The position numbers and the translations under genes were made by a program. Shown here piece after piece: positions 17,848 through 64,000 of a stretch of 64,000 nucleotides of DNA; positions within the stretch are counted from its first letter, which is position 1; the number at the start of each line of letters is the position of its first letter. The notes beneath the pieces are model-generated. The model was not told where the DNA came from and did no database searches. It was given only the letters and a program-made list of their open reading frames with translations. Origin of the DNA: a virus; the IMG/VR virus record IMGVR_UViG_3300025769_012879, positions 32,001 to 96,000 of that record. One strand, 5' to 3'.

Positions 17848-19641
17848 ATGCCAAATAAAAAAGTAAAACCAGTAAAATATGCCAGCAAAAACTTTGAAGA
17901 AATAAAGCAACAGTTGGTGACATATGCAAAAACTTATTATCCTGATACATACAAGGATTTTAATCAGGCGTCTTTTGGTTCTTTAATGCTTGACACAGTT
18001 GCCTACATAGGTGACATGCTTTCGTTTTATATCGATTATCAATCAAACGAATCTTTTATTGATAGCGCAATAGAAACTCAGAATCTTTTAAAGTTAGCAA
18101 AGCAATTTGGATATAAAAACCCTGCTTCTTTTTCATCAGCAGGCAAATGCGCCTTTTATGTTCAGGTCCCTGCCAATACTGATGGAACACAAAATTTCGA
18201 TTTAATTCCTACTCTTAAAGAGGGAACAACTCTTTCAAGTAACACCGGAACATCATTTACACTTACATCAGATGTAGACTTCACAAAAACAGATACAGAA
18301 ATTGTTGTTGCAGCAGAAGTTGAAGGAGTTCCAACAATATATGCCTATAAGTCTTACGGCGATGTTTTATCTGGTATTATAGAGACTGAGATATTGGAAG
18401 TCACCCAATACGAAAAGTTTTTAAAATTAACTTTGGATGCAGATGAGATAACTGAAATTATTTCTGTAGTGGATAAAGAGGGTAATGAGTATTATGAGGT
18501 TCCCTATCTTTCTCACAATGTAATTCTACAACCAATAAGAAATCCAAATATTGAAGGCGGCGAAGATGCCCCATATATTTTAAGAGAGAAATTGTCATCT
18601 AGAAGATTCATAGTTGACGTTGATGAGAACGGTAAAACCTCCTTACAGTTTGGATATGGTTCAGAAGACAGCATAAAAGAAGATGATTACCCTGATCCAT
18701 CTAGAACTTCATTGCAGAGGTATGCCAGAACATATTATTCAGACGATAGTTTTGATCCAAATGTTTTATTGGAAAATGATAAGTTTGGTGTCGTACCACC
18801 TGTTGGTGGATTAAGTGTAACTTTTAGACGCAACAATGGTGATTCTGTTAATGTGCCAGTAAATTCTGTAGATTCTGTTGATGAACCACAATTATCTTTT
18901 AACACTGATAGTCCTCCCTCTTCTGAGAATCTTTCTTTTATCAGATCATCACTTGATGTTGATAACGAAGAAGCAATATTGGGGAATGTCGCAGATGTTA
19001 CCCAGGAAGAAATTAGAATCAGAGCATTAAACGCCTATTCTTTGCAGAATAGAGCAGTGACTCAACAAGATTACATTAGTTTAATATATCGAATGCCAGC
19101 AAAGTTTGGCGCTATTAAAAGAGCAAATATCGTTCAGGACAAGGATTCATTTAAAAGAAACTTAAACTTGTACGTCATATCTGAGGATATAGATGGAAAT
19201 CTAACAACAACACCATCAACAGTCAAAGAGAATTTGAAGGTTTGGTTGAATCAATATAAAATGATTAATGACACAATCGATATTTTAGATGGGTATGTGG
19301 TAAATTATTTTGTAGAATACAAAGTTTTGGGCGCATTAGATTACTCACAGTCAGAAGTTTTAAACCAGTGTAATGACGCAATAAAGCAGTTGTTGGCAAC
19401 TCAATCTTTGTTTGGGCAACCATTTTACATTTCTGACATCTATAAAGTATTAAATGATCTTGATTCTGTTATTGACACTCAAGATGTGCAAATTAAACAA
19501 AGATTTGGTGAAAATTATAGTCCATTTGCTTTTGATATCAACGGTGCAACAACTGACGATGGCAGATTTATCATTGTACCAGAAAATGCAATTATGGAAT
19601 TAAAATCACCAGATGAAAATATTATTGGAGTGGTAGTCTAA
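17848..19641 (+). CDS. Baseplate wedge protein, T4 gp6/baseplate J-like
   Basis: YPDTYKDFNQASFG.LMLD..AYIGD.LSFY.D, LQFGYG, QNRAVTQQDY. Confidence 0.88.
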   Translation: MPNKKVKPVKYASKNFEEIKQQLVTYAKTYYPDTYKDFNQASFGSLMLDTVAYIGDMLSFYIDYQSNESFIDSAIETQNLLKLAKQFGYKNPASFSSAGKCAFYVQVPANTDGTQNFDLIPTLKEGTTLSSNTGTSFTLTSDVDFTKTDTEIVVAAEVEGVPTIYAYKSYGDVLSGIIETEILEVTQYEKFLKLTLDADEITEIISVVDKEGNEYYEVPYLSHNVILQPIRNPNIEGGEDAPYILREKLSSRRFIVDVDENGKTSLQFGYGSEDSIKEDDYPDPSRTSLQRYARTYYSDDSFDPNVLLENDKFGVVPPVGGLSVTFRRNNGDSVNVPVNSVDSVDEPQLSFNTDSPPSSENLSFIRSSLDVDNEEAILGNVADVTQEEIRIRALNAYSLQNRAVTQQDYISLIYRMPAKFGAIKRANIVQDKDSFKRNLNLYVISEDIDGNLTTTPSTVKENLKVWLNQYKMINDTIDILDGYVVNYFVEYKVLGALDYSQSEVLNQCNDAIKQLLATQSLFGQPFYISDIYKVLNDLDSVIDTQDVQIKQRFGENYSPFAFDINGATTDDGRFIIVPENAIMELKSPDENIIGVVV

Positions 19642-21116
19642 TGGCAATCAGAAGATTTAAAGCAACAAAAGATAATACCATCACTAACGCGTTTAAAGCG
19701 AACCTTACTACTCGTGGTACTGGTTCAAACATGGGTGAATCAGATATTCTAGAAGTTTTTAGTATATATGCACAAGCAAACACCGCTTCTAGTGAGTTAT
19801 CAAGAGTTTTAATTGAGTTTGACATCAACGCTTTGTCAGCATCAAGAGACAGTGGCAATATCCCAGATTCTGGATCTGTTGATTTTTACTTAAGAATGTT
19901 TAATGCTGAACATTCTTCAACCACCCCAACAAACTATACTCTTACAGTCGCAGCAATCTCACAGTCATGGACAGAAGGAATTGGTCTTGATATGGATGAT
20001 TACTCTGATCCTGGCGCTTCAAACTGGATTGATGCAAGTTCCACTACTACATGGACCATTCAAGGTGGTGATTACCTTACTGGAACATTGGATACCGTTT
20101 CAACACAAGTATTCCCCACAGGTATCGAAGATTTACAGGTTGATGTAACTCATCAAGTTGAAGAGTGGTTAAATAACAATACTGCTAGTTATGGATTTGG
20201 CGTATTTTTAACATCATCTTTAGAAGAGGCAGCAACTTCATACTACACAAAGAAATTCTTTGCAAGAGATAGTCAATACTTTTTGAAGCGACCCGTTATT
20301 GAAGCAAGGTGGAACGACAACAGAGGCGATGATGCTGCTAATTTCTATTTGAGTTCATCTAGAGTTCCAGCAGCAGATAACTTAAATAAACTATACCTTT
20401 ACAACTATGTTAGAGGTCAGTTGCAAAATATACCAGGAGTTGGAACTGGAGATATTTTATTGAGTGTTTACTCTGGTTCTAATTCTGTTTTAGATACATC
20501 AAAGATAGGACTTCCTGTTGGCGGCGGTGTTGTTGCCAATGGGGATAGAAACATTACGGGTAGTTATGTTTCAACAGGTATTTATTCAGCAGAGTTTGCC
20601 TACACAAGTTCAGGTATAACTGAAATATATCCAGTTTGGCACAGCGGATCAACAGAATACTTAACTGCATCAGCAGTTACAGTGAATACTTTTGAGACAC
20701 AAACACCCTACCCTATAAATTCTTATAAAACAAGTATTACGAACCTACAGTCTGAATATGGATCATCTGACGTTGCTCACTTTAGAGTGTTTGTACAAAA
20801 CAAAAACTTTGAAGCAACTGTTTATACTATTGCATCAACAGCAGTTGAACCAACAATTGTAGAGAAAATGTATTACAAGGTTCAAAGATTTGTTGATGAG
20901 CAGGTAGTAATTGATTACGGCACTGGGTCTGGAAATGCAAGTTATTCACAACTTTCTTATGATTCTGCTGGAAATTATTTTGATTTGGATATGAGCGTCT
21001 TCGAACCAGATTTTTCATATCAAATTAGTTTTTTAATTAATGACGCAGGTAATTACTATGAACTAAAAGATAAATTTAAATTTAGAGTAATTGACGAAAA
21101 CGACCTACCGGGTTAA
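19641..21116 (+). CDS. Virion structural protein (baseplate-associated, beta-rich)
   Basis: Overlaps the gp6-like gene; SRVLIEFD, SQSWTEGIG; Ser/Thr-rich. Confidence 0.65.
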   Translation: MAIRRFKATKDNTITNAFKANLTTRGTGSNMGESDILEVFSIYAQANTASSELSRVLIEFDINALSASRDSGNIPDSGSVDFYLRMFNAEHSSTTPTNYTLTVAAISQSWTEGIGLDMDDYSDPGASNWIDASSTTTWTIQGGDYLTGTLDTVSTQVFPTGIEDLQVDVTHQVEEWLNNNTASYGFGVFLTSSLEEAATSYYTKKFFARDSQYFLKRPVIEARWNDNRGDDAANFYLSSSRVPAADNLNKLYLYNYVRGQLQNIPGVGTGDILLSVYSGSNSVLDTSKIGLPVGGGVVANGDRNITGSYVSTGIYSAEFAYTSSGITEIYPVWHSGSTEYLTASAVTVNTFETQTPYPINSYKTSITNLQSEYGSSDVAHFRVFVQNKNFEATVYTIASTAVEPTIVEKMYYKVQRFVDEQVVIDYGTGSGNASYSQLSYDSAGNYFDLDMSVFEPDFSYQISFLINDAGNYYELKDKFKFRVIDENDLPG

Positions 21117-21148
21117 TAAAAATCTAATAGCAAAATAATTATAAAGAC

Positions 21149-24100
21149 ATGGGTACAAAAAGTTTTTTTAACAAGCAGAAGTCACAAGAAGTAAAAGTTC
21201 GCGGACAAGAAAAATCAACAATCGCAGATATCAGAGATGATATTGAATCTGAAGATTATGTAAAAGAACATACAATAGATAAGTTAAACTTTTTACCTGA
21301 GTTGGACTTTGAAGATCCCAAAAATTTTGTAAAATACGGATCTGCAAAAGATTACTATGTTGATTTAGTTGATAGCGTTGTTCAATCATATCCATATGAT
21401 GGATCTCTCGCAGAAAAATTAAATTATCGAAATGGATTGGTTGCAATTCAAAAACACGAGTTTGATAAAAACTATCCAAGGTTTGTTGGTTATGCAAACT
21501 TTGGAGATGAAAGTTACTCTGCTGTTCTTGGAACTCCATTCACAGTAGGCGACATAACTTTTACTTTTGGTCAGAACGTAACAGATCATTACGTTATAAC
21601 AGACAACTACTCTAAAAATCTTGTATATAATTCTACTTCAAGTCAGGTTGGCAGTATTGAACTTAACTTTTCTGAAGGAGTAACGGTAGAATTTTGGATG
21701 AAAAAGGAATTTTTTCCTGATCCTAGTGAAACACAGAATGAGGTTATTTTCTCTATTAGTAACGAGAGAACCGCAACTGACCTATTTCAAATTACAACTG
21801 ATGTAACTGGATCGGGTAAAGAGAAATTATATGCAACTTTTTCAAAGACAACTTCTTATGAACCAGAGTTCGTATACGAATTTGACACCGGCATTTCACA
21901 ATCCAATGGTCTTGGTTTGGCAGATGGCAACTGGCACCATTATGCGTTTGCCTTCTCTACCAGTTCAACTGGATATGTTGGAGAGTTTTACGTTGACGGT
22001 CGATTTAGGGAAAAGAAGTTTTACACGCATCCAAGTCCACAATTCAATTTGACGGGTACTCTTGATGCCACAGTCGCCGCCTCATCTCACTATACATATT
22101 TGGGGGACGGTTCGCTTCTTGGTTCTATTGACGAAGTTCGTCTTTGGAAAACCGCAAGAAACGCCAAAGAAATTGGCGTAAATTACTTTTTTGATGTCGG
22201 CGGCGGCGGCAATACCGACACAACAAAAGTTAATGACAACAATCCATTAGGATTATCGCTATATTATAAGTTTAATGAGAGCAACACAGGTGATTCTAAT
22301 GTTGATAGTGTTGTATTGGATTATTCTGGGCGTTTAACAGATGGAGTCTGGGTTGGATACAATACCACCTCAAGAACTTCGGGATCTGCAATAATTGAAT
22401 CAGGTACCACTAGAGAAGTTGGTGAACCAATTATATATTCAACTCACCCAGATGTTGTTACATACAAAGCAGATAAAATAACTTCTGGTTCATTGTATGA
22501 CGCTGAAAACATTGGCAGCATGTACGACATGCTACCACAGTGGATAAGCGACGACGATGCCGCCAACGGTCTTCTAATTCGTAAGATGATGCAGATTATG
22601 TCTAGTTACCTAGACACGCTTCACGCGCAAATTACGGCGATTTCACAACTACAAGATGGATCTTATGTTAGTGGGTCAAATGCCAAACCAAATCCATTCT
22701 CAAAAAGAAATCTGATTTCTTATGGATTTGACATCCCAGATGTGTTTATTGACCCAGGCGTTATTGAAGAAATATACTTTAAAGACGAGAAAAGAGTTTA
22801 TGAAGAAAAATTATATAATCTAAAAAACTTAATTTTTCAAAACATATTTAACAACTTAAATTACATTAATAAATCTAAAGGTACAGAGAAGTCATTTAGA
22901 AACTTGTTCCGCTGCTTTGGAGTTGACAATGAACTTGTTCGTTTGAACATGTATGCAGATGGTCAAGAATATGAATTAAAAGAGAACTATGTAGCGTCAC
23001 AAGCAAAAAGAAACATTATTGATTTGTCCGGTTACAACGATGGAAATAGTAGATCATCAGTAATCTACACATTCGCAGATCCATCTAAAAGCACCGATGA
23101 GACAGGTGATAGTGGATACATCCCATCCTCATCAAACGTTTATATTCCATTGACTTTTGAAAACCAGTTTCAATTTCCTAAGTTTGTAGATTTTCCTGAC
23201 AATTATTTGGACAAATTATCAAAAGTTTCATTGTTCGGTGTACACAGCGCCAGTAGTGACACTACAAGCACAACTATCCCAACGGGCGATTTGAACTTTA
23301 AGGTATATGCAGAGACAAATACAAACAATAAAACACAATTTGTCTTAGAGACCAATATTGGAACTGTTACTGAATTAACATCTTCATTCTACGAGGATGT
23401 TTATGACAACACCAATTGGACTTTCGCTGTTAGAACAAAACCAAGAGAATATCCTTTTGCTCAACATGTAACAGCATCAGATGTATTCGATTTAGAATTT
23501 TACGGTGTAAATTATGTTTCAGGGTATAAATTACATGAATTTACTGCTTCGGCAGAGGTGAATTTAAACGACGACATAGGACAATTTATAACAGGGTCCA
23601 ACAAGAGATTGTATGTTGGAGCAGATAGGGAGAACATTACAGGGTCTCTAAACTATAAATCAAATACAAGGTTGGTATCATCACGCGTTTGGTTTGATTA
23701 CCTTGAAGATCAAGAACTTAGAAACCATGCAAAAGACGTTACAAATTACGGTAGAGAGTATCCATATCAAAATTCATTCATATTTGAAAATGGAGAGTCA
23801 GAAAGTTATGTTCCAAGAATTAGCACTTTGGCACTTCACTGGAATTTTGAAAATATTACAGGTTCTGACTCAAGCGGCAAGTTCTTAATTCAAGATACCA
23901 CATCTGGATCAAGTTATGAACTCGATTCAAGGTTTGCAGGTGGAGAATACTCTAGATATGTTGGTCCAAACTACAGCGGACAAGGTTCAGAATTTTCTAC
24001 TAACTCAACAGACGTTGTAGATTTTCTATTTGTTGATACAGCAGAACAACAGTTGCCAGAAAACTTATATAGTTCTGATTTAATTGAGATTAGGCAAGGG

Positions 24101-27100
24101 GATGACAGTATCTTTAAAAAGGATAGTCGTCCAAGCAAATACTATTTTGCAGTTGAGACAAGTTTATATGATTCAATATCACATGACATTCTTGGATTCT
24201 TTGCTTCTATTAACGACTTTAATAGTCTTATTGGAGCACCTGAAAATGCATATCGACCAAACTACAAAAACTTAGAAAAACTAAGACAATTGTTTTTTGA
24301 AAACGTAACAAATGAACCTGATTTAGAAAAGTTTGTAAATCTTTACAAATGGATGGATGGTGCATTAGACAGTGTTATTAGCAACTTAATACCTGCTTCT
24401 GCAAAAACATCAGACCAAGTTAGAAACATAGTTGAAAGTCACATACTAGAAAGAAGTAAATATATAAGAAAATACTTATCAGTTTTGGAATACACTATTC
24501 CATTTAACGCCAATTTAAACAATAATAGCAACGTTCTATTGCCAACTAATGAAGGTGTGACAAGTATACAGATTAATCCACCTTCAGGTGCTCCTCTTGT
24601 CAGCACAATTAAATCTGTGTCTTCAATGACAAACTATGTTGACTCAGAAATTATAGGAAATACATCTCCAAAATATAAACAAGGATTACAACCTGGAAAC
24701 AAAACGTTTAAGGACAAAACAAGTTTTGCTACAAGTGCTGAACTTAGTACGCCAACAGCGCAGACTAAAGATTCACCATCTCAAATTGTTAGTTCTAAAG
24801 ACTTATCATCGCCATTGCCAGGAACCTTTTTTGGATCACCTCTCGATCAGGGTACAAAGCAGTTATGGTTCTTAAATAAAGCAGAAAGAAACCCAGGCGG
24901 TCTTTTATCAACTGGTGTTGAATCTGTTGATGCTGCAAGAGTTCAGCAACAATATAACAATTATCAGGTTTTAACTGGTTCTAGACAACCCGTTTACACA
25001 TTTAGAGCAAATGCTAGTAAACCAATATCACAAAATACAACATATGGTGGCGAAAATAAAAAGTCTTACTTTGCTAGTTCTTTCAATGGTACTAATGACG
25101 AAACTAAAGATGGATTAGATATTGAAGTCCTTAAAACCGTTCTGAACCGTGATGATCAACCTTACTATGACTATGTTGACTCTTTAGATCGAACTTTTGG
25201 TGGGCATAGAATGCCACCAACAAAAATAACAAATCTATCAAATTCACAGAATTTGAATGGTCAAAATTATTTGCCGTTTAACATAATCAGTGCATCAACT
25301 GCGGTGAATGCTTGGCAAGAAGAATTATTTACAGAAGGTCACGAGATTGATATTGTTTCATCTCACCAAGATTACGTTGTAGATGGTGGATCGCTACAGG
25401 GACCATTTACCAAGGATCATGCTGGTGGGTGGATGTATCGACACAATGCGCCACTTTTAACATCTTCACACCTGAGAAAAGAAGGTTATACCTTCATGCC
25501 AATAAACTCTACAAACCTAAGAGTTTTAAGTCCAAGATATTACAATTCAGGCGGTAGTCCAGTATACAATTCAGCGCGACCATATGGTGCCCTTTTAAGA
25601 GAAGAAGTGGCACAAAGACCAGTGGTAATAAAAAATATAAGTGGGTCAAACTATTTTCACGATTACCAGATAGTGCAAACAGCAGGTAGAAAAGAAAATA
25701 ACAGATATTATGTAAAGTCCAATGGATACACTGGAACAGTAAACAGTGTAAGTGATATTGGATATGACGAAGCAGGAGTCTTCATCTACAAAGATTTCAC
25801 TGTTTTAAACAGAGATACAACAGGAAGTAACACCTTTGTAATTGTAAACAGGTTTAGTGCTCCAGGCGGTCCAGAAGTTAGTTCATTCTCTTTCTTGGAT
25901 GTTGAGGCAGCAGAATATTCAGTTTATAACAATCTCAACTATAGAAACTTAGTAGTTAGAATTGAAAACAATAAGTTGTTGACAAGACACACATTGACAG
26001 GTGGTTATGATTCAGTTCTTTTACAACCAACAGCATCTTTTTACAAACCTCAAAGAAATGGTGTGTACACTGTATCCTCTTCATTGACAACAGTTGAACC
26101 AGTATTTGATAACTCTTACGTTAATTACTCAATCCCAAGAACAGATGTTCAATACGCTTGGGTAGCAAGTTCTTGGATTGCGAGAAAAACAGGTTATCCC
26201 AATGAAGCAACACTAACTTCTGATTCTGGACTCTTAACTGCAAGCGGAATAAATAATCTCGGTGGCAACGAAAGCGACTTTGATTACAACATAACTTCTA
26301 GTGATTACTCACCAGTTTATGGTTTCAGATTTTCCGAAAACATAAGAAACATAGATAAGAGTCACGCTCAGTTTGAAATTAATAGCAACAATGAATCAGT
26401 GCCATTTAATGGAGTAAACTTTATAATTGTAGGTGATGTAGATACCGACAATAATCTCTTTACCACTTCATCAACAACTGAAGGTAATTATTTATCAAGA
26501 GCAACATTTGACTCATCAACATCACCATTAGTTTTGAATGCATTCTTATTGTCAGAAAATGGTCCATATCAATATCCAACATTCAAACAAATTAGAACTG
26601 CTGATCACAGGGTTGCTAGAAAGTTAAGAAAAGAGAATATATACGTCAGCAATAGAGACAAATACATTCTTGGCAACACCAAAGTGTTGAAGAACGGTGA
26701 AAAGTATACTATTAATCAGACTCCAGTCACAAACAAATACAAACCAGTTGTTCAATACATAGATGATACAACTGGTACAATAAAGTACGAGTTTGGTAAT
26801 GATTTAAATTACTTTGCAACAACCTATATCTCATCAGCAAATGAGAACGTGAATTACAATTTTGAATTTAACGTACCAAGAAATGACATCTTAGATACTG
26901 ACTTTTACAAGTTTAGTCAAAAATATAAGATTGTAAGATACAAAGAAGTAAATTACCCAAAAAATGAAAACCAATACAAGAATGAATCAAGAAATCGAAT
27001 AAACTACTTGTCTTTCTGGGTAAGTGATGACATTGAAAACAGAATTGATAATTCTTTTGTCAACTCTCAGGGATACACAATTAGTGGTTCAGAATGGTCA

Positions 27101-30005: not shown

Positions 30006-30884
30006 ATGACGTTTTTTAATAAAAAAGAGGAAGTAGTTGAGTTGAAACTGACTAGGGTTGGGCGAGAAAAACTCTCTCAAGGAAAGTTTGCTCCAACACA
30101 CTATGAATTTTTAGATGAAGACGTATTGTATGATAAGTACAACTATATCTCAGGTTCATACGAAGAGCAGAATGAAATAAAAAAAAGAATTAAAGAAAAT
30201 ATATCTTTAAGATACCCAACTGCTAAACAGGGAGCAATCTCATCTAAAGGCACAAAATCAATAGAAAATAAGTTAATAGAGAGTTTGGGAACTTTCATAC
30301 CTTATTCAAATTTAAAACCCGCTTGGGATTTAAAAGCAATAGACGGAACAATCTTCACTGGATCTGGTGAGATTGAATATACTTCACTAGAGGCGCGAAG
30401 AGAGGGAACTGTTAACCCTTCTTATGAGAAAATACCGCAGTTAGATTTAGTATGTGATTATAACTACAACATCTTTATTTTATTTGATAAAAATAATACA
30501 AAAAAGAATAAAGATTTCTATGCTGCTGTGGACGAAAATCCATTTATTACAATTAACGACTTATTGAAGGAGGATGAATTTGACGCATTTATGCTTTTCA
30601 AAAAGGGGTTTAACGATTTTACGATGACAGTCGAAGAGGATAACGTTTTAAAAGAAAAAGAAATGTTTACCTTGGAAGTTTATGAATACAAATATTCTAA
30701 TGAATTTCAAAAAATAGAGTTAGAAAAACTTTACTTTGATTCAGAGGACATAGATGAGACCTCTGTGCAATGGTATTTTGACATTTCAACTGATGGTGCA
30801 GTAGAACCAGCAAGAGAAGGTTTTACATTTGTTAATGAAAAAGTTGAAGTTGAAGGACCAGATGATGAGTGCGAGGACGTTTAA
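30006..30884 (+). CDS. Tail/baseplate-associated protein; N-terminus paralogous to 36700
   Basis: VELKLTRVGREKLSQG...EFLDEDVLYD. Confidence 0.6.
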   Translation: MTFFNKKEEVVELKLTRVGREKLSQGKFAPTHYEFLDEDVLYDKYNYISGSYEEQNEIKKRIKENISLRYPTAKQGAISSKGTKSIENKLIESLGTFIPYSNLKPAWDLKAIDGTIFTGSGEIEYTSLEARREGTVNPSYEKIPQLDLVCDYNYNIFILFDKNNTKKNKDFYAAVDENPFITINDLLKEDEFDAFMLFKKGFNDFTMTVEEDNVLKEKEMFTLEVYEYKYSNEFQKIELEKLYFDSEDIDETSVQWYFDISTDGAVEPAREGFTFVNEKVEVEGPDDECEDV

Positions 30885-30898
30885 AGAGGTTATCTAAT

Positions 30899-32593: not shown

Positions 32594-32596
32594 AAC

Positions 32597-37668: not shown

Positions 37669-38757
37669 ATGGCAATTAGAAAACCGCTAGCACAGGAAGA
37701 TATAACTGCAACTAAAACATTGTTGCACGAAAGTTTACCAATTACTGGTACAATTTTTTCTGGTACTTACGACACTGACGATCTTACAAGAGGAACAAAT
37801 ATTAAGACCTATGGTCACGGCATGTTTCAGTCTGTTTATGATTACCCTTACCTAAGTTCCTCAGCAAACCACATCATGGACCTAACTTTAGGTATTAGAA
37901 ATGAGACAGTTGCCTCTCAGAGTGTTGATAAGGCAAACATTTACAGTGAGTTTGCTCAGATGTTGGCAGGATATGATTCCACTGCATCAATCGAACCATT
38001 GAGAGTTTCAGGAACCGCAACTGGTGATATTATCCAGAATCCTATGTTCATTAGCGTTGCTAGACTTCTACAGAAGGATGAAATTCAAAAAGGTTCATTT
38101 AAGTTAACACTAGGTTTGGATGAAGACTACTCTACACCTTTCACCAATCTATTTTACATTAGTGATTTTGGTGCAACTGAATCTTACAATTCCGTTAACT
38201 CTCCTCTTGGCGAGTTCGGCATTCTTAGAAGTGGATCATCAACTGATGCAACCGATGCAGCAAACAACGACGCTGTTGGTTTAGTTTACTATCAGGCAGG
38301 AATTGTTGTTCTAGATATGTCCGCAACAATTGATTTAGCAATGGCAAATCAATCATTAACCGGCGATGATTTTGAGTTTGTGAAAAGCAGCACAACATCA
38401 CCAAACTTGTTAACTTACACAGGAAGTTATGAGTCAGGAACAATTGATCAAAACGCTGATGCATTAAGACACAGAATTTACAATATGGAATTCAACAACA
38501 CAACAGAATTGAATTCAACAATTTACTTCTGTAGAGCAGGACATAATGAATTCAACTATAGTTCAAACCCAACATACTTGTCTTCTAGTCAAATAAGGGT
38601 TAAGGGTAACAATCCCAAGGCGAATCCCATTAGTTATATCACAACAGTTGGATTATACTCTGCTGAAGGTGCGCTTGTCGCGGTTGGTAAATTTAGTGAA
38701 CCATTAAGAAAGGATTCTACGACTGAATTGACTGTCCGTGTAAGATTGGATTACTAA
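37669..38757 (+). CDS. Tail/baseplate structural protein; paralog of 38769
   Basis: C-terminal YFCRA..NEFNYSSNPTY...YITTVGLY...LVAVGKFSEPLRK. Confidence 0.65.
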   Translation: MAIRKPLAQEDITATKTLLHESLPITGTIFSGTYDTDDLTRGTNIKTYGHGMFQSVYDYPYLSSSANHIMDLTLGIRNETVASQSVDKANIYSEFAQMLAGYDSTASIEPLRVSGTATGDIIQNPMFISVARLLQKDEIQKGSFKLTLGLDEDYSTPFTNLFYISDFGATESYNSVNSPLGEFGILRSGSSTDATDAANNDAVGLVYYQAGIVVLDMSATIDLAMANQSLTGDDFEFVKSSTTSPNLLTYTGSYESGTIDQNADALRHRIYNMEFNNTTELNSTIYFCRAGHNEFNYSSNPTYLSSSQIRVKGNNPKANPISYITTVGLYSAEGALVAVGKFSEPLRKDSTTELTVRVRLDY

Positions 38758-54048: not shown

Positions 54049-54273
54049 ATGAGTGCAACTAACGTCCATGTGACAGCAAGAAGAAACGAATCAGGTGAAG
54101 CGCTAATCAAAAGATTTAGCAGAAAGGTAAAGAGAGAGGGGATTATCGAAGAGTGCAAAAAAAGAATGTACTATGAAAAACCCTCTGTAAAAAGAAGAAG
54201 AGATAAGTTAAGAAGAAAAAGAGTTTTAAAGAAACTATTTATGAAACAGAGCGGAGAGAAAGATGTCAGATAA
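54049..54273 (+). CDS. rpsU: Phage-encoded 30S ribosomal protein bS21
   Basis: ESGEALIKRFSRKVKREGIIEECKKRMYYEKPSVKRRR matches the bS21 pattern; GAGGT RBS. Confidence 0.88.
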   Translation: MSATNVHVTARRNESGEALIKRFSRKVKREGIIEECKKRMYYEKPSVKRRRDKLRRKRVLKKLFMKQSGEKDVR

Positions 54274-54730
54274 CGGAAACATCCAAGCAAATACAAGTTA
54301 TGCAGATCAAAGATTTCAGTATAACAGTCCCGGTGTTGGCGCAGTTGGTCAATACCAGACCAGTGGTATTCCATATGCCACCGCATCTGTTCTTGTTCAG
54401 AGTATTCTGAATGGTGAAGGTGCCACAGAGGTCCCATTCCCATATGTTACAAAGTTTGTAACAGTTGTAAATGAACACAGTGGTTCATCAGCAAAACTCA
54501 GAGTTGGTTTTAGCGCAGCAGGAATTACTGGATCGGGTGCTCCATCTGGACATGGAGACAATTACTTTATATTAGATAACGGTGAATCATACACTGGTGA
54601 ATTTAGAGTATCAAAAGTTTTTATTGCAGGTGATTCATCTGCAACAACCGCTTCTGTAATTGCTGGCATGACTGGCATTCCATCAACCAAACTAAAAACT
54701 AACTGGTCAGGAACCTCTGGAGTAGGTTAA
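54263..54730 (+). CDS. Putative head decoration/structural protein
   Basis: Ser/Gly/Thr-rich beta protein; CTATTTA at 54235 lies 28 nt upstream. Confidence 0.55.
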   Translation: MSDNGNIQANTSYADQRFQYNSPGVGAVGQYQTSGIPYATASVLVQSILNGEGATEVPFPYVTKFVTVVNEHSGSSAKLRVGFSAAGITGSGAPSGHGDNYFILDNGESYTGEFRVSKVFIAGDSSATTASVIAGMTGIPSTKLKTNWSGTSGVG

Positions 54731-57395: not shown

Positions 57396-59234
57396 ATGTC
57401 AAACATAGTCGAAAGATTAACAGAAAACATCGTTGCTCGTGACCTCCGTCAAGAAGGCGCTGCCCTAGTTTCCAAATGGGAAAAAACAGGTCTACTTGAG
57501 GGTCTCGGTGATGATAGAACAAAGGACAACATGTCCCGTCTCTTAGAGAACCAAGCCAAGGAACTTCTACGTGAGGCTTCCACAATGGCAGCAGGTGATG
57601 TCGAAGGTTTCGCCGCCGTCGCATTCCCAATCGTCCGTCGTGTATTCGGCGGTCTACTCGCTAACGATCTCGTTAGTGTTCAACCAATGAGTCTACCAAG
57701 TGGTCTCATCTTCTTCCTAGACTTCCAGAAGGCAAATGCCCGTCTAGGTGATGACGCTGCTGATTCCGTTTACGGTGGTGGCGTTGTTGGTCAGGCAATC
57801 ACAGGTGGTGTATCACTAACCGGTCGTAACGCTGAAAAGTCACTTTACAGTCTAAACAACGGTTACTCCTCACCAGTTTCCGGTGCAGTAACTGACATGA
57901 ACGTCGGTCTAGAAGTTGTCGCTTCAGGTGCTATCGACTCATCAGGTCTATTCCAGTTCATGGATAACGATCCTGCTGACCAGATCACAATCGAAGAGGC
58001 AAGAAGAATTCTTCGTTACGATCCAGATCTACCATCAGGAACTGGTATCATCATCGCTGAGGGTGAGGCAACTGACTTACCACAACTCAACCGTGATGAC
58101 TTGGTTGCTATTTCTTACCGTGACGAGAATGGTGCAGTCCTATCAGGTACTGCTGCTCAGTTCTCACTAACACAGGTTCGTCGTTTGACCACCTATGCTA
58201 CTGCTTCAAACGGTACACCAAACAACGCTAGAATCTTCTCAGTGTTCACCACAACTGCTTCCGTTAACGTAGCAAATGATTCTACTGCTCTTCTTGACGC
58301 TGCTGCCAACATTCCAGTTGATCAGACAGTCGCAAGAGTTCAGTACGCTACTGCTGATAACTTCGCAACAGGATTGGGCGATCCCGGTTCAGTCGCTGGT
58401 ACAGCAAGTTGGTTGCTAGAAGGTGACGTTGAGGGTGCTGCCCCAACATTTGGTGATGTAAGCAATGAGATCCCAGAGATCGACATCAAAGTAGATTCAG
58501 TTGCTGTAACAGCAGTAACTAAGAAACTACGTGCTAAGTGGTCACCAGAGTTAGGTCAAGACCTAAACGCTTACCACAACCTCGACGCCGAGGTAGAGTT
58601 AACTGGTATTCTTTCTGAGCAGGTCGCTCTAGAAATCGATCGTGAGATCCTAGAAGACCTCATCAAGAGAGCAACTGCCGGTACACTACACTGGTCACGT
58701 CAACCCGGTCGTTTCGTTAACCGCGAGACTGGTGCTGATTTAGAGGAAGCCAGTTCCTCAACTGGTTACCCAGAGTTTACTGGTACCGTTTCTGAGTGGT
58801 ACGAGACCCTCATTGAGACAATCAATGACGTTTCTGCTCGTATCCACAGAAAGACACTTCGCGGTGGTGCTAACTTCCTAGTTTGCTCACCAGAAGTTGC
58901 CAACATCCTTGAGTTCACCGCTGGTTTCCGCGCAAGCGTCAGCGTTGATTCAAATGGTACCGCTGGTGCTGTAAACGTTGGTTCAATCTCTAAGAAGTTT
59001 GACGTATACGTCGACCCATACTTCCCACGTAACGTAGTTCTCGTTGGTCGTAAGGGTGCTAGTTTCCTAGAGAGCGGTTACGTTTACGCTCCATACGTCC
59101 CACTACAGGTCACTCCAACCATCTTTGGTACAGAGGACTTTGCACCACGTAAGGGTGTAATGACTCGCTACGCCAAGAAGATGGTTCGTCCTGACATGTA
59201 CGGTCTAGTAATTTGCCATAACTTGGTTGGTTAA
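57396..59234 (+). CDS. Major capsid protein (T4 gp23-like)
   Basis: KWEKTGLLEG, LLENQ, VSVQPM..PSGLIF, KLRAKWSPE..QDL.AYH..DAE.EL, EIDREI, YAPYVPL, GVMTRY; AAGGAGG RBS. Confidence 0.96.
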   Translation: MSNIVERLTENIVARDLRQEGAALVSKWEKTGLLEGLGDDRTKDNMSRLLENQAKELLREASTMAAGDVEGFAAVAFPIVRRVFGGLLANDLVSVQPMSLPSGLIFFLDFQKANARLGDDAADSVYGGGVVGQAITGGVSLTGRNAEKSLYSLNNGYSSPVSGAVTDMNVGLEVVASGAIDSSGLFQFMDNDPADQITIEEARRILRYDPDLPSGTGIIIAEGEATDLPQLNRDDLVAISYRDENGAVLSGTAAQFSLTQVRRLTTYATASNGTPNNARIFSVFTTTASVNVANDSTALLDAAANIPVDQTVARVQYATADNFATGLGDPGSVAGTASWLLEGDVEGAAPTFGDVSNEIPEIDIKVDSVAVTAVTKKLRAKWSPELGQDLNAYHNLDAEVELTGILSEQVALEIDREILEDLIKRATAGTLHWSRQPGRFVNRETGADLEEASSSTGYPEFTGTVSEWYETLIETINDVSARIHRKTLRGGANFLVCSPEVANILEFTAGFRASVSVDSNGTAGAVNVGSISKKFDVYVDPYFPRNVVLVGRKGASFLESGYVYAPYVPLQVTPTIFGTEDFAPRKGVMTRYAKKMVRPDMYGLVICHNLVG

Positions 59235-59258
59235 TTGCTAATGCGTAGTTAAGGGTTG

Positions 59259-59295: not shown

Positions 59296-59300
59296 AATAA

Positions 59301-59310
59301 AACTATTTAG
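59301..59310 (+). promoter_or_regulatory. Candidate late promoter AACTATTTAG
   Basis: Immediately after the terminator; core 27 nt before ATG 59330. Confidence 0.6.
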
Positions 59311-59329
59311 ATAGTAGGAGATTACGTGA

Positions 59330-60619
59330 ATGTCAGTACCAGATTTAACACCGTTAAGTAATTCAAGCAAAGTAATTTTGCCAATTACAGGAACACCCGA
59401 TAATGTAAATGCTTCAAGCAACCCATTACCATTTGGTTTTTATATGCAAGGACCAGATTCCGCAGCATTTGCTTCAGGTGCAGCAGATCAGGTTAGTTTT
59501 GTTTACAAGAAATTAGGTGGCGATGTATTAGATATTGAATTAACTCAATACAATGTTTATGCAGCATATGAAGAAGCAGTGTTGGAATATTCATACTTGG
59601 TAAACATTCACCAAGCAAAGAACTCGTTAAACAACCTACTTGGCGCTACAACCGCTTCTTTTGATGAAGACGGACAGATTGTCGCTGGTGATGCTTTAAG
59701 CGGTTCTAACATCGAAATGGCGCTTCCTAGATATACGTTTGATTACACAAGAAGAGTTGCTGAAGGCATTGCTTCTGAAGCGGGTGCTGGTGGTGGTTTA
59801 ACTTACTATACAGCATCATTTGTTCCAACTGCTAGTGTGCAAGATTACGATTTACAGCAAATCGTTAGTTCATCAATTACAAATGGAACGTTGACATTAA
59901 ACAGCGGCGACACAGTTGGCGATAATAAAATTATTATTAGAAACGTTTATTACAAAACACCAAGATCAATGTGGAGATTCTTTGCATATTATGGTGGTTT
60001 GAATGTTATTGGTAACTTATCAACATATGGTCAATATGCTGACGATTCAACTTTTGAAATTGTTCCAACTTGGCAGAACAAACTTCAGGCAATAATGTAT
60101 GAAGATTCAATTTACACCAGAACTTCACACTATTCATACGAAGTTATTAATAATAAATTAAGATTGTTCCCAACTCCAAGCACTGTTGGTTCACCAGATA
60201 GATTTTATTTTAGATTTACTGTAAAGAAAGATTCATTTGAGGAATATCCAGATCGTAAAACTGGAACAAAGGGTGTCAATAACATGAACAACCTACCATT
60301 CCAGAATATTCCATATGCATCAATCAACTCAATTGGTAAGCAATGGATTCGTAGATTTGCTCTAGCACTTTGCAAGGAAATGCTTGGACAGATCAGAGGA
60401 AAGATGGGCAACGCCGTTCCACTTCCAGGTGGTAACATTACACTTAATGCACCTTCTTTGTTGGCAGAAGCAGCAAAAGAAATGGGTGATTTAAGAACAG
60501 AACTTAAGACAGTATTAGACGAATTAACTTATGAGAAATTGTTAACAAAAGACTCTAATATGACCAAGGCAACTGCGGAAACACTCAAACAAGTCCCAGT
60601 TCCATTATTTGTAGGGTAA
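59330..60619 (+). CDS. Neck/head-tail adaptor protein (T4 gp13-like)
   Basis: KKLGGDVLDIEL, WIRRFALALCKEMLGQIRGK, PGGNITLN..L..EA. Confidence 0.8.
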   Translation: MSVPDLTPLSNSSKVILPITGTPDNVNASSNPLPFGFYMQGPDSAAFASGAADQVSFVYKKLGGDVLDIELTQYNVYAAYEEAVLEYSYLVNIHQAKNSLNNLLGATTASFDEDGQIVAGDALSGSNIEMALPRYTFDYTRRVAEGIASEAGAGGGLTYYTASFVPTASVQDYDLQQIVSSSITNGTLTLNSGDTVGDNKIIIRNVYYKTPRSMWRFFAYYGGLNVIGNLSTYGQYADDSTFEIVPTWQNKLQAIMYEDSIYTRTSHYSYEVINNKLRLFPTPSTVGSPDRFYFRFTVKKDSFEEYPDRKTGTKGVNNMNNLPFQNIPYASINSIGKQWIRRFALALCKEMLGQIRGKMGNAVPLPGGNITLNAPSLLAEAAKEMGDLRTELKTVLDELTYEKLLTKDSNMTKATAETLKQVPVPLFVG

Positions 60620-60625
60620 TAAAGA

Positions 60626-61111: not shown

Positions 61112-61120
61112 GATTATTAA

Positions 61121-62089: not shown

Positions 62090-62106
62090 TCTTTGCCGTA
62101 TTTCTA

Positions 62107-62122
62107 AACTATTTATTGTAGC
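62107..62122 (+). promoter_or_regulatory. Candidate late promoter AACTATTTATTGTAGC (tail sheath)
   Basis: Identical to 56335-56350; upstream of GGAG RBS and ATG 62141. Confidence 0.65.
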
Positions 62123-62140
62123 ATAATTGGGAGATATTTT

Positions 62141-64000
62141 ATGAGTGCCAGAAAATTTAAGTTTATTTCACCCGGCGTTTTCCTAAACGAGATTGATAAT
62201 ACACAACTACCAAACGAACCAGCAGAGACTGGTCCATTGTTTGTTGGTAGAGCAAAGTATGGTCCAGCAATGAGACCTGTAACAGTTGACTCATTTGCTG
62301 AGTTTGTACAGTTATATGGTGAACCAGTTCCAGGTGGAAAGTCTGATGATGTTTGGAGAAACGGCAATGAGCAGTCTCCTATGTACGGTACTTACACTGC
62401 ACAATCCTGGTTAAGAAACTCATCAACCTGCACCTACGTTAGAATGTTGGGTTCTGAGCATACTGAAGCAACCACAGCAGGAAAGGCAGGTTGGAAAATC
62501 ACAGGTGTTTCCCCACTTGGACTTGATATTCCCCATGGTGGACAGTTCCCAGAGTTTACAGGCGATGCAACTGGTTCTGCTTACGGACTCTTTGTATTCC
62601 CAAACCAACTTAGTGGTTCTGAGACAGAAAGCGCTCACGGAACTGGATCATTGGTCGCAACATGGTATGTAGAGGACGGTCTTGTTGGACTAGTAGGTAA
62701 AGACACCTTTGGTTCAAACGTTAATGCTGATACCGCGCCTACTGGTATGTGTACTTTGATTGCATCAGACGATAGCGGCAAATTCACAGTTGTAATTACA
62801 GGTTCAACTGGATACGATAAAGATCGTATCATAAGTTTTTCATTGAATGAGAATAATAAAGATTATCTCAGAAATGTTTTTAACACAAACCCAGCATTAG
62901 TCAATAAGTCAATTACTAAATCATCTCAACGAGAGAGATACTGGTTGGGCGAGACTTATGCTAGAGAGTTTAGTCAAAAATTAACACGAGGTGTAGTTAC
63001 AGGATCTGGTGGCGCTTCCCAGGGATCACCCAATGCAACTTACTTGGGTGCAATAATTCCCCTAGCAACCGGTTCTGATGCAAGACATAGTAACAGGCAA
63101 ATACCTTTTGAGAGAGGTACAACAAGAAATAACCCAGCAACAGGTATGGTTTTTGGTCAGGACTTGGGTGGCGCTGCTGCTTCAGGTTCTTACACATATG
63201 GTAATATGACTGAGTTGTTTAAGTTCCACGCCCTAGATCATGCTGAGTGGGCACAGAACAATCTCAAGGTTTCTATTGCCAATATTAACTATTCGCAAGA
63301 TCAGTTCAATAAGTTTGGTACATTTGACGTTCTAGTTCGCCGCGCTAGTGATACAGACGCAGCACCAGTTGTTTTGGAGAGATTCAGCAATTGTAACTTA
63401 GACGCAAACTCTTTAGACTATGTTGCAAGAAAAATTGGCGATCAGTTCTTACAGTTCGATCCAGTTACAAGAAGATTAAGAACAAGAGGTGAGTACCCTA
63501 ACAGTTCAAAATACATTAGAATTGAAATGGATGCTGACGATTACGATTCTCAATTGTTGCCATTCGGATATTACGGTCCTTTAAAGTACAAAGATATTGA
63601 AGTGGATAGAGAGACAAACACTCAGCAGAATAACTTTGGTACTGGCATATTTGGACTAGGTGCCAAAAATATCTTCGATGGTGCTCAAGACCAATTAATT
63701 ATTACAGGTTCAGGTCTCGGCGCTAGTGGATTCAAGGGACCAGGACTTAAGTTGCTTTACCCATCTCACGAATTGAGAATTTCTGGTAACCAAGATGGTT
63801 TAGCAGACCAAACTGACGCTTACTGGGGTGTTTGGACTGGTATCTCTAAGACAAGTAACAAGTTTAACCGCGATTACGCCGACTTGAATAGAAACAGATC
63901 AGACATTATCACTGCGCCACTAACTGATACCGCGTACAGTGAGTACCAATACATCTTTACTCTTGACGAAGTTGTATCTGGATCATCAGATGGTATTCTA
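62141..64000 (+). CDS. Contractile tail sheath protein (3' partial; not in ORF track because it has no stop in the window)
   Basis: MSARKFKFISPGVFLNEID...FVGRAKYGPAMRPVTV.S..EF...YGEP is a typical sheath N-terminus. Confidence 0.9.
   Translation, partial: MSARKFKFISPGVFLNEIDNTQLPNEPAETGPLFVGRAKYGPAMRPVTVDSFAEFVQLYGEPVPGGKSDDVWRNGNEQSPMYGTYTAQSWLRNSSTCTYVRMLGSEHTEATTAGKAGWKITGVSPLGLDIPHGGQFPEFTGDATGSAYGLFVFPNQLSGSETESAHGTGSLVATWYVEDGLVGLVGKDTFGSNVNADTAPTGMCTLIASDDSGKFTVVITGSTGYDKDRIISFSLNENNKDYLRNVFNTNPALVNKSITKSSQRERYWLGETYAREFSQKLTRGVVTGSGGASQGSPNATYLGAIIPLATGSDARHSNRQIPFERGTTRNNPATGMVFGQDLGGAAASGSYTYGNMTELFKFHALDHAEWAQNNLKVSIANINYSQDQFNKFGTFDVLVRRASDTDAAPVVLERFSNCNLDANSLDYVARKIGDQFLQFDPVTRRLRTRGEYPNSSKYIRIEMDADDYDSQLLPFGYYGPLKYKDIEVDRETNTQQNNFGTGIFGLGAKNIFDGAQDQLIITGSGLGASGFKGPGLKLLYPSHELRISGNQDGLADQTDAYWGVWTGISKTSNKFNRDYADLNRNRSDIITAPLTDTAYSEYQYIFTLDEVVSGSSDGIL

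What the first reader, a model, noticed from the sequence alone, without database searches (positions are those of the whole stretch)
19641..64000. Candidate glycosylation sequon [ST]-[GAS]-S in exterior virion proteins, suggesting a phage virion O-glycosylation system
Seen: TGS/SGS/TAS/SAS/TSS/SSS, often after a hydrophobic residue (ITGS, LSGS, LTAS, VSSS), recurs in outward-facing structural proteins. By-eye counts are about 13 in 19641 (491 aa), 34 in the 2944-aa protein, 5 in 37669, 9 in 38769 (443 aa), 4 in 54263 (155 aa), 4 in MCP (3 in its central insertion), 5 in the neck protein and 9 in the first 620 aa of the sheath (all [ST]GS). I found none in terminase, portal, scaffold, primase or the 1051-aa Mre11-Rad50. 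Some tail-block ORFs (14462, 30899, 32597) also lack it. Inference: a short motif shared by unrelated folds but confined to exposed virion proteins behaves like a modification sequon. The glycosyltransferases and rare-sugar pathway at 1-11.3 kb are the obvious candidate writers, which would give a glycan-coated virion.
Basis: partly seen in the sequence, partly recalled or inferred. Interest (0 to 1): 0.9.

Follow-up and report, generated by a model that had tools for sequence, protein, structure and literature searches.

The report
Sugar-tag-like motif on phage virion proteins
The outer particle proteins of this abundant marine T4-like phage and its relatives carry the short motif Ser/Thr-Gly/Ala-Ser four to six times more often than chance, and only in phages that also encode a conserved pair of sugar-transferring enzymes, so the motif is probably a sugar-attachment tag, though no chemistry has been measured.

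Summary
Observation confirmed. [ST]-[GAS]-S is 4-6x enriched over whole-protein and local shuffles in nine late proteins: sheath, neck, MCP, a 2944-aa protein and five others. The core is φ-[ST]-[GA]-[ST]-φ. It is not a DNA word, a shared domain or a composition effect.

The same orthologues are enriched across the Far-T4 lineage. Sheath orthologues keep 7-19 sites but share only 2-6 positions, and 355 of 361 sites lie in the variable domains.

T4 shows no enrichment. All 13 genomes with an adjacent GT4a-GT4b glycosyltransferase pair are enriched, five of them predicted blind. All 3 genomes without GT4b are not. One of those three, LR756508, is nested among the positives and has lost both GT4b and the motif.

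The rare-sugar genes vary between relatives. The conserved GT4 pair (GT4b = window 2-736) is therefore the better writer candidate. The island enzymes are soluble, and no hydroxymethylase for DNA glycosylation was found.

The sequon reading is partly supported. The evidence is statistical and comparative; no modification has been measured. This scan has noted analogous but different motifs on other phage genomes, and those motifs are not enriched here. Cultured relatives (immuto, RM378) make the idea directly testable.

The parts
2..736 (+). C-terminal 244 aa of GT4b. The full gene is 430 aa and starts 556 bp upstream of the window, at G000 31444-32736. It is a GT-B/GT4 glycosyltransferase with an intact EX7E motif and is the best candidate for the motif-linked writer. 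Its partner GT4a (423 aa, G000 30176-31447) lies immediately upstream, outside the window.
   Evidence: Pfam Glycos_transf_1. EX7E conserved. Syntenic orthologues in every motif-positive genome and absent from LR756508, LR756511 and T4. One of only 10 proteins shared with both immuto and RM378.
729..3164 (+). 811-aa protein with three glycosyltransferase domains: an N-terminal GT1-like domain (residues 1-290) and two GT2 domains. It is a probable glycan-extending enzyme.
   Evidence: Pfam GT2 twice. PDB SpsA and heparosan synthase matches. The N-domain resembles viral ~290-aa proteins, some carrying PF00534. The N-domain recurs beside or fused to GT2 in G001, G003 and G005 only.
3155..4261 (+). 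368-aa island protein of unknown family.
   Evidence: No Pfam, PHROG or NCBIfam hit. No homologue in the relatives examined.
4245..11319 (+). Nucleotide-sugar pathway: HisH- and HisF-like proteins and a PP-loop amidotransferase, a PglD-like acetyltransferase, an SDR epimerase/dehydratase, a DegT aminotransferase, a hexapeptide acetyltransferase, a GFO/MocA oxidoreductase and a cupin. It probably supplies a di-N-acyl/acetamidino sugar. This part of the island is variable and lineage-specific.
   Evidence: Pfam. Mostly absent from or replaced in G001-G005 and immuto. No TM segments.
19641..21116 (+). 491-aa late protein directly after the baseplate-wedge gene. It has 13 [ST][GAS]S sites, the highest density in the window.
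   Evidence: 13 vs 2.8. Orthologues pooled 54 vs 9.3. Family of more than 4800 proteins whose consensus keeps the motifs. The fold is β-rich, pLDDT 64.
21149..29983 (+). 2944-aa giant tail/fibre-like protein with a ConA-like lectin domain and 34 sites.
   Evidence: 34 vs 10.9. Laminin_G_3. No internal repeats. Orthologues 82 vs 18.4.
30006..30884 (+). 292-aa late protein with 2 sites. The family as a whole is enriched.
   Evidence: 2 vs 0.25. Orthologues pooled 8 vs 1.0.
37669..38757 (+). 362-aa tail protein with 5 sites, a paralogue of 38769.
   Evidence: 5 vs 2.0. Orthologues 24 vs 6.5. BLAST to 38769 at E 3e-11.
38769..40100 (+). 443-aa tail protein with 9 sites.
   Evidence: 9 vs 1.9. Orthologues 33 vs 6.9.
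54263..54730 (+). 155-aa protein in the head-gene block with 4 sites. Its function is unknown.
   Evidence: 4 vs 1.5. Orthologues down to below 50% identity keep 3.4-3.7 sites vs about 0.75 expected. Pooled 16 vs 3.9.
57396..59234 (+). Major capsid protein (T4 gp23 family) with a large insertion. It has 4 sites, 3 of them in or next to the insertion.
   Evidence: Pfam Gp23. 4 vs 1.7. Orthologues pooled 16 vs 8.7.
59330..60619 (+). Neck protein (gp13-like head-tail adaptor) with 5 sites, all in the N-terminal half outside the conserved adaptor core.
   Evidence: phrog_211 match to residues 195-397. 5 vs 1.2. Sites drift only within the class at conserved columns: TAS/TGS/TGT in 56 of 57 sequences and SAS/TAS/SGS in 57 of 57.
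62141..64000 (+). Tail sheath, first 620 of 985 aa (the gene runs to 65098 in window numbering). There are 9 sites in the window part and 10 in all.
   Evidence: Foldseek top hits are T4 gp18 chains at E 4e-16. 9 vs 2.2. Positional turnover with maintained density, confined to positions 100-700.

Best explanation
The motif φ-[ST]-[GA]-[ST]-φ (φ = hydrophobic; no charge and no proline at the flanks) is an acceptor tag for cytoplasmic O-glycosylation of virion proteins before or during assembly. The proposed writers are the two soluble, catalytically intact GT4 glycosyltransferases, GT4a and GT4b, which are core genes of this Far-T4 phage lineage. The neighbouring GT2/GT1-like enzymes and the phage-specific nucleotide-sugar genes would then extend the glycan, whose composition differs between phages. 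The result would be a sugar coat on the outward-facing domains of sheath, neck, capsid, baseplate periphery and fibres.

Shown here: the enrichment, its protein-level nature, its restriction to a fixed set of late proteins, positional turnover with maintained density, a flank signature shared by three distant lineages, and co-variation with the GT4 pair.

Inferred: that the motif is modified at all, that the modification is a sugar, that GT4a/GT4b are the enzymes, and which Ser/Thr is the acceptor.
For: (1) The enrichment is robust to whole-protein shuffles, local shuffles and the reversed motif. TGS, TAS and SGS are the top tripeptides. Codons at the sites are heterogeneous.
(2) The motif-rich proteins are not homologous to each other and contain no repeats.
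(3) The same orthologous subset is enriched in G001-G005 while the rest of each proteome matches expectation.
(4) In the sheath, 106 alignment columns carry a site and 50 of them are singletons. Orthologues at 38-57% identity keep 7-19 sites but share only 2-6 with the query. 355 of 361 sites lie at positions 100-700 and 6 in the conserved core.
(5) Sites have no single secondary-structure context.
(6) T4 is negative: 13 vs 24 over 34 proteins, with the sheath at 1 vs 1.35.
(7) Every genome with the adjacent GT4a-GT4b pair is enriched: G000-G005, immuto and RM378, plus G007, G010, G011, G012 and G013, which were predicted before counting. Genomes without GT4b are not enriched: LR756508 has 0 of 634 ORFs enriched, LR756511 shows 61 vs 48 over 200 kb, and T4 is negative.
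(8) LR756508 groups with immuto on the MCP and TerL trees, so its loss of GT4b and of the motif is derived and coupled. Its GT4b slot holds an unrelated ORF.
(9) In an unbiased phyletic screen, GT4a and GT4b are among only 10 proteins shared with both immuto and RM378. Only GT4b and one structural protein are missing from LR756508.
(10) The same flank signature appears in three lineages and is absent from chance sites.
(11) Island proteins have no TM segments. No ThyA-family hydroxymethylase or DpdA is present, even in the 100%-complete G005.
Against: No chemical evidence of any modification is available. The co-variation amounts to only about two independent evolutionary events (one origin, one loss), and the negatives LR756508 and LR756511 are huge phages that differ in many other ways. 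GT4a and GT4b match no characterised protein O-glycosyltransferase family above cut-off; the SdgA/SdgB hits are far below it. LR756508 retains a GT4a-like gene and other GTs without having the motif, so a GT island alone does not predict the motif. The 36700 family co-varies equally well. Surface exposure could not be computed, and the 19641 model has low confidence. The GT island sits next to DNA-metabolism genes (a nuclease), so a role on DNA or another acceptor is not excluded.
Confidence: 0.6

Rival explanations
1. The motif is a lineage-specific structural preference with no modification. The β-rich outer domains of these phages would favour a small polar tripeptide between hydrophobic residues at strand ends and tight turns. 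The link with GT4b would then be shared ancestry plus one coincidental loss.
For: The hydrophobic flanks and the Pro and charge exclusion fit strand-turn-strand geometry. 37% of sites lie within 3 residues of a strand end. S/T and G/A/S exchanges are conservative substitutions anyway. In the sheath, motif S/T residues are no more conserved than other S/T residues.
Against: T4 and LR756508 have homologous sheath, neck and MCP folds without the motif. Sites occur in coil, strand and helix, with no significant strand-end preference (p 0.17). Density is maintained while positions turn over. The proteins involved have unrelated folds. Five blind predictions from GT4-pair presence succeeded.
Confidence: 0.2
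2. The motif is read by a different trans-acting factor, for example another Ser/Thr modification (phosphorylation, acylation) or an assembly chaperone. The GT island would then act on something else, such as phage DNA or host envelope glycans.
For: The acceptor specificity of GT4a/GT4b is unknown. The island lies next to a PD-(D/E)XK nuclease. Phage GTs are known to hypermodify DNA (Pyle et al. 2024, as cited in PMC12619734). The 36700 family co-varies as well as GT4b does.
Against: No ThyA-type hydroxymethylase or DpdA was found in four genomes, one of them complete. Immuto already has a DpdA/7-deazaguanine system for DNA modification yet keeps the GT pair. No export or lipid-carrier machinery and no TM segments were found in the island. 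No Ser/Thr kinase or other candidate writer emerged from the phyletic screen.
Confidence: 0.15
3. The enrichment is a statistical or compositional artefact of Ser/Thr/Gly-rich regions.
For: The enriched proteins are richer in S, T and G than average. The reversed motif is also mildly elevated, 37 vs 15.
Against: Block shuffles down to 10 aa keep p at or below 0.0005 for the main proteins. First-position specificity is sharp: 43 of 66 G-S pairs are preceded by S or T. Other [ST]-x-[ST] classes are not enriched. Control genomes of similar composition show nothing.
Confidence: 0.02

Closest known systems
Mycobacteriophage virion O-glycosylation (Che8-type; Freeman et al. 2023, Cell Host Microbe; known here only through its citation in PMC12619734; the paper itself was not held)
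   Same: Phage-encoded glycosyltransferases are proposed to decorate the phage's own structural proteins in the host cytoplasm, giving a glycan-coated particle.
   Different: There, glycans sit at the C-termini of the capsid and tail-tube subunits of siphoviruses of Actinobacteria, and were shown by MS. Here the candidate sites are a dispersed three-residue motif on sheath, neck, capsid insertion, baseplate periphery and fibres of T4-like myoviruses. The tail-tube region has no sites, the enzymes are a different conserved GT4 pair, and nothing has been shown chemically.
GtfA/GtfB O-GlcNAcylation of serine-rich-repeat adhesins, and SdgA/SdgB glycosylation of Ser-Asp repeats, in Gram-positive bacteria (from established knowledge)
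   Same: Adjacent pairs of soluble GT4-family enzymes glycosylate Ser in short small-residue contexts (S-A-S-type repeats) in the cytoplasm, and further GTs then extend the glycan.
   Different: Both phage GT4s keep EX7E, whereas GtfB is non-catalytic. No DUF1975 insertion is present. The SdgA/SdgB models score far below cut-off. The acceptors are isolated motifs in folded domains rather than long repeat tracts, and there is no accessory Sec system.
Bacteroidota general O-glycosylation, sequon D-[ST]-[AILVMT] (from established knowledge)
   Same: It is a short three-residue Ser/Thr sequon used proteome-wide in the probable host phylum.
   Different: That system is periplasmic and uses a lipid-linked donor. 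Its sequon is not enriched here: 32 vs 26 in the motif-rich proteins.
Other sequon-like motifs noted by this scan on other phage genomes: [S/T]-G-x-T, S-[G/A]-x-T, D-S-[A/D] and G-S-P (AI notes)
   Same: The pattern is the same: a short Ser/Thr motif enriched on outer virion proteins, density kept while positions move, and phage GTs nearby.
   Different: The motif and the candidate enzyme differ. None of those motifs is systematically enriched in this lineage, and no Maf-like gene is present.

Membership tests
Phage virion O-glycosylation (mycobacteriophage type) | Phage-encoded glycosyltransferases present | tested here: met
   GT4a, GT4b and a triple-GT 811-aa protein.
Phage virion O-glycosylation (mycobacteriophage type) | Glycans attached at the C-termini of the capsid and tail-tube subunits | tested here: not met
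   Candidate sites are dispersed. MCP sites lie at residues 269-453 of 612, and the late proteins just downstream of the sheath (65129, 65707) have no sites.
Phage virion O-glycosylation (mycobacteriophage type) | Glycan on virion proteins demonstrated chemically | not testable with these tools
   This needs MS or glycan staining of virions.
GtfA/GtfB-type SRRP glycosyltransferase pair | Two adjacent GT4-family genes | tested here: met
   GT4a and GT4b overlap by 4 bp and are syntenic in 13 genomes.
GtfA/GtfB-type SRRP glycosyltransferase pair | One subunit is catalytically inactive (GtfB), and GtfA carries a DUF1975 insertion | tested here: not met
   Both proteins keep EX7E. There is no DUF1975 Pfam hit and no GtfA/GtfB NCBIfam hit.
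GtfA/GtfB-type SRRP glycosyltransferase pair | The substrate is a long serine-rich repeat tract | tested here: not met
   No internal repeats were found, and the sites are isolated.
SdgA/SdgB Ser-Asp repeat O-glycosyltransferases | Match to the NCBIfam exception models above cut-off | tested here: not met
   24 and 16 bits against a cut-off of 800.
Bacteroidota general O-glycosylation | D-[ST]-[AILVMT] sequon enriched on the targets | tested here: not met
   32 vs 26.1.
N-glycosylation (N-x-S/T) | Sequon enriched on the targets | tested here: not met
   79 vs 74.9.
Maf-type flagellin glycosyltransferase systems | PF01973 (MptE-like) gene present | tested here: not met
   No hit in G000, which is 78% complete.
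T4-type DNA glycosylation | A pyrimidine hydroxymethylase (ThyA family) supplying hm-bases | tested here: not met
   No PF00303 hit in G000, G003, G004 or G005, the last 100% complete.
Bacterial autotransporter heptosyltransferases (TibC/Aah) | BAHT-family enzyme present | not tested
   No dedicated search was run. None of the island proteins hit such a model in the NCBIfam scan of four of them.
T4-like (Far-T4) myovirus | gp23 MCP, gp20 portal, gp17 terminase, gp21 protease and gp18 sheath | tested here: met
   Pfam Gp23, Portal_T4, Terminase_6N and Peptidase_S77. Foldseek gp18. The trees place it with immuto and RM378.

The most novel reading that the evidence does not exclude
Sequon-directed cytoplasmic O-glycosylation is a core, ancestral trait of the abundant aquatic Far-T4 phages. 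A conserved GT4a/GT4b pair primes φ-[ST]-[GA]-[ST]-φ loops on all outward-facing virion domains. Lineage-variable enzymes then build different glycans on top, and the sites drift in position like the glycan shield of enveloped animal viruses. This would be a previously unrecognised layer of phage-host and phage-grazer or particle interaction in the ocean.
Probability: 0.5. Interest if true: 0.9.

Novelty: new variant of a known kind. Interest (0 to 1): 0.78.

Why it matters
Virion glycosylation has been shown experimentally only in mycobacteriophages, where it alters immune recognition. If this finding holds, a defined short sequon and a conserved two-enzyme writer would extend the phenomenon to a very abundant group of aquatic T4-like phages; both the 19641 family and the GT4b family have more than 4000 homologues, many from Tara Oceans samples. 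It would give glycosylation sites that can be predicted from sequence. It would explain why glycosyltransferases are as conserved as capsid and tail genes in these phages. It would also bear on adsorption, stickiness to marine particles, resistance to proteases and host-range evolution. Two cultured members carry both the motif and the enzyme pair (Flavobacterium phage immuto and Rhodothermus phage RM378), so the question can be tested directly.

Tried and rejected
- DNA-level word: rejected because the codons are heterogeneous.
- Shared mobile domain or internal repeats: rejected. Only 37669 and 38769 are paralogues, and 21149 has no self-hits.
- Local S/T/G-rich composition: rejected by 10-40-aa block shuffles.
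- Generic property of myovirus structural proteins: rejected by T4 and by LR756508 and LR756511.
- Host-type Bacteroidota sequon and the N-x-S/T sequon: not enriched.
- Motifs noted elsewhere by the scan ([ST]G.T, S[GA].T, DS[AD], GSP): not systematically enriched here.
- GtfA/GtfB-like active/inactive pair: both GT4s keep EX7E.
- Maf-like writer: none found.
- Rare-sugar genes as the conserved writer: they vary among motif-positive relatives.
- Depletion of the motif in other late proteins as evidence of avoidance: about 30 families sit near zero, but T4 is also about 0.5x expectation, so this is not diagnostic.
- A single secondary-structure context: none found (p 0.17).
- PHROG annotation of most tail proteins gave nothing.
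- The sheath profile found nothing in LR756511.
- The Freeman 2023 paper is not held.
- The Far-T4 paper does not mention GTs.
- Literature searches found no precedent for this sequon.
- No complex prediction was run, because no binding claim is made.


Full report
WHAT THE WINDOW IS. The window is bases 32001-96000 of a 141-kb IMG/VR contig, 78% complete. All genes lie on the + strand. It carries a T4-type major capsid protein, portal, large terminase, prohead protease and an Mre11-Rad50 fusion, and a tail sheath whose model matches T4 gp18 (Foldseek E 4e-16). The nearest cultured relatives are Flavobacterium phage immuto (MCP 48% identical) and, further away, Rhodothermus phage RM378. That places it in the 'Far-T4' group (PMC4360716). 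It belongs to a very abundant aquatic lineage: 487 related contigs were found through the neck protein, and the 19641 and GT4b families each have more than 4000 homologues, many from Tara Oceans samples.

THE OBSERVATION. Against 2000 shuffles of each protein:
- 19641: 13 observed vs 2.8
- the 2944-aa protein: 34 vs 10.9
- 38769: 9 vs 1.9
- the sheath: 9 vs 2.2
- the neck: 5 vs 1.2

Terminase, portal, protease, Mre11-Rad50 and several tail proteins have none. Shuffling inside blocks of 40, 20 or 10 residues leaves the enrichment intact, and the reversed motif is weaker. Without any prior, TGS, TAS and SGS are the most over-represented well-populated tripeptides in these proteins and not in the rest of the proteome. 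Dissection shows a core of [ST]-[GA]-[ST], with Ser preferred at the third place. 43 of 66 Gly-Ser pairs are preceded by Ser or Thr. The codons are heterogeneous. The proteins are not homologous to each other, apart from the paralogues 37669 and 38769, and the giant protein has no internal repeats. The signal is therefore real, acts at the protein level, and is not explained by composition, repeats or a shared domain.

BEHAVIOUR IN RELATIVES. In five long relatives (G001-G005) the same orthologues are enriched and the remainder of each proteome matches expectation. Pooled over orthologues, nine late protein families have observed/expected ratios of 1.8-8.4 and about thirty sit near zero. At conserved neck-protein columns the residues drift only within the class: TAS/TGS/TGT in 56 of 57 sequences and SAS/TAS/SGS in 57 of 57.

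In the sheath the picture is turnover. 106 alignment columns carry a site in at least one of 33 orthologues, and 50 of those columns are singletons. Orthologues at 38-57% identity keep 7-19 sites but share only 2-6 with the query. 355 of 361 sites fall in query positions 100-700, the variable domains, against 6 in the conserved C-terminal core. Motif Ser/Thr in the sheath are no better conserved than other Ser/Thr. What is maintained is the number of sites, not particular positions.

On the two models (sheath pLDDT 79; 19641 pLDDT 64), 78% of sites include coil. A few lie in strands or helices, and there is no significant preference for strand ends. This is not one rigid structural element. 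Burial could not be computed.

CONTROLS. Phage T4 shows nothing: 13 sites vs 24 expected over 34 proteins, including all tail, fibre and head proteins. The host-phylum sequon D-[ST]-[AILVMT] and N-x-[ST] are not enriched.

THE GLYCOSYLTRANSFERASES. The island begins upstream of the window. The order is a PD-(D/E)XK nuclease, then GT4a (423 aa), then GT4b (430 aa; its last 244 residues are window 2-736). Next come an 811-aa protein with a GT1-like domain and two GT2 domains, an unknown 368-aa protein, and a pathway for a di-N-acyl/acetamidino sugar.

Across relatives the sugar-pathway genes are mostly absent or replaced. The nuclease-GT4a-GT4b arrangement is conserved in G001-G005 (44-75% identity) and in immuto (30-35%). 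Both GT4s keep the EX7E catalytic motif. They match no characterised family above cut-off. In an unbiased screen only ten proteins of this phage are detectable in both immuto and RM378: terminase, portal, MCP, neck, sheath, three tail proteins, GT4a and GT4b. The pair is thus as conserved as the virion core. The Far-T4 paper does not mention this.

CO-VARIATION. Immuto has the pair and shows the enrichment: tail spike 53 vs 12, a 373-aa protein 13 vs 1.8, sheath 8 vs 2.6. RM378 was found to have the adjacent pair and was then found to be enriched: 82 vs 36.8, with seven significant proteins.

The 484-kb uncultured phage LR756508 has homologous MCP, neck and sheath, but none of its 634 ORFs is enriched. 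It keeps the nuclease and a GT4a-like gene. Where GT4b should be, it has an unrelated 261-aa ORF followed by a CMP-sugar synthetase and a GT29-like gene. LR756511 has neither GT4 and no enrichment over 200 kb, a stretch that includes the head genes, a baseplate wedge gene and the large proteins downstream.

On the MCP and terminase trees LR756508 groups with immuto (99/98 for the immuto/LR756508/RM378 clade; 87/95 for immuto+LR756508). Its state is therefore a derived, coupled loss.

As a blind test, nine long relatives of LR756508's MCP were scored first for the GT4 pair. All five that have it (G007, G010, G011, G012, G013) then proved enriched, with 12, 2, 5, 7 and 8 significant proteins. 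The tally is 13 of 13 genomes with the pair enriched and 3 of 3 genomes without GT4b not enriched. This corresponds to only about two independent evolutionary events.

The flanking signature is shared by the marine clade, immuto and RM378: hydrophobic at -1 and just after the tripeptide, charged residues depleted at both flanks, and proline 0 of 406 just after the tripeptide in the marine clade. It is absent from chance occurrences in LR756508 and in non-enriched proteins.

ALTERNATIVES FOR THE GTs. DNA glycosylation of the T4 kind needs a ThyA-family hydroxymethylase. None is found in four genomes, one of them 100% complete, and no DpdA either. Immuto already has a DpdA/7-deazaguanine system yet keeps the pair. 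There is no flippase, polymerase or other membrane protein in the island that would serve host-envelope glycans. These points disfavour other acceptors but do not exclude them.

INTERPRETATION. The best-supported reading (about 0.6) is that φ-[ST]-[GA]-[ST]-φ is an acceptor tag for cytoplasmic O-glycosylation of outward-facing virion domains. The conserved GT4 pair, and GT4b in particular, would be the writer, and the variable enzymes would extend the glycan. A purely structural preference (0.2) does not explain why sister lineages with the same folds differ, or why the GT4 pair predicts the motif. A different trans-acting factor (0.15) cannot be excluded. An artefact is very unlikely.

COMPARISON WITH WHAT IS KNOWN. 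In mechanism this resembles mycobacteriophage virion glycosylation and the GT4-pair systems that glycosylate serine-rich adhesins. It fails the defining features of both: C-terminal sites in the first case, and an inactive partner, the DUF1975 insertion and repeat-tract substrates in the second. It is therefore filed as a new variant and not as a member of either.

This scan has noted analogous motifs on other phage genomes ([S/T]-G-x-T, D-S-[A/D], G-S-P). Those motifs are not systematically enriched in this lineage, and no Maf-like gene is present. This is therefore a distinct motif-enzyme combination.

LIMITS. Everything rests on sequence statistics and comparative genomics. No modification has been measured. 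The acceptor residue is not identified. The co-variation has few independent contrasts. The contig is incomplete. My gene calls are simple longest-ORF calls.

Noticed in passing
G000 30176-32736 (window -1824 to 736); L138:11176-13736: GT4a and GT4b are among only ten proteins of this phage still detectable by BLAST in both immuto and RM378, alongside terminase, portal, MCP, neck and sheath. This makes a glycosyltransferase pair a core gene set of Far-T4 phages, which the Far-T4 paper does not mention.
   Followed up: yes
G011:C1:62711-64200 (L275): In this 90%-complete relative GT4a is split into two ORFs (208 and 309 aa) while GT4b is intact, and the motif is still enriched (5 proteins). This may be a frameshift, a sequencing error or a truly split enzyme.
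   Followed up: partly
L149:37641-44877 (LR756508 302.6-309.9 kb): The motif-negative 484-kb phage has, in the syntenic place, a ThyA-family gene, a PD-(D/E)XK nuclease, a SLOG-domain protein, a GT4a-like gene, two unknown ORFs, a cytidylyltransferase and a GT29-like sialyltransferase. This looks like a different glycan system, possibly directed at DNA or at another acceptor.
   Followed up: partly
window 11559-11843: A 94-aa ORF at the end of the sugar island has a strong hydrophobic segment (Kyte-Doolittle 2.30), the only clear membrane-type segment near the island.
   Followed up: no
L154:25085-25387 (RM378): A 100-aa RM378 ORF next to the tail tube and sheath genes carries 5 [ST][GA]S sites against 0.46 expected.
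   Followed up: no
G007:C1:110811-153682 (L240-L242): This complete 253-kb relative encodes three proteins of 3866-4828 aa in a row. One has 269 motif sites against 68 expected, the most extreme case seen.
   Followed up: no
L138:6114-9340 (G000 25114-28340): Upstream of the island the phage encodes an adenylosuccinate synthetase, a ClpP-like protease and a PIN-PhoH fusion.
   Followed up: no
window 32597-36646, 14414-16255, 17848-19641, 30869-32593: Four large tail-block proteins have no [ST][GAS]S site at all against about 6 expected (whole-protein shuffles). T4 proteins are also below expectation, so this may be a generic property and not avoidance.
   Followed up: partly
window 36700-37644: This 314-aa protein of unknown family is the only protein besides GT4b that is shared with immuto and RM378 but missing from LR756508. 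It sits just upstream of the motif-rich paralogues 37669 and 38769.
   Followed up: no
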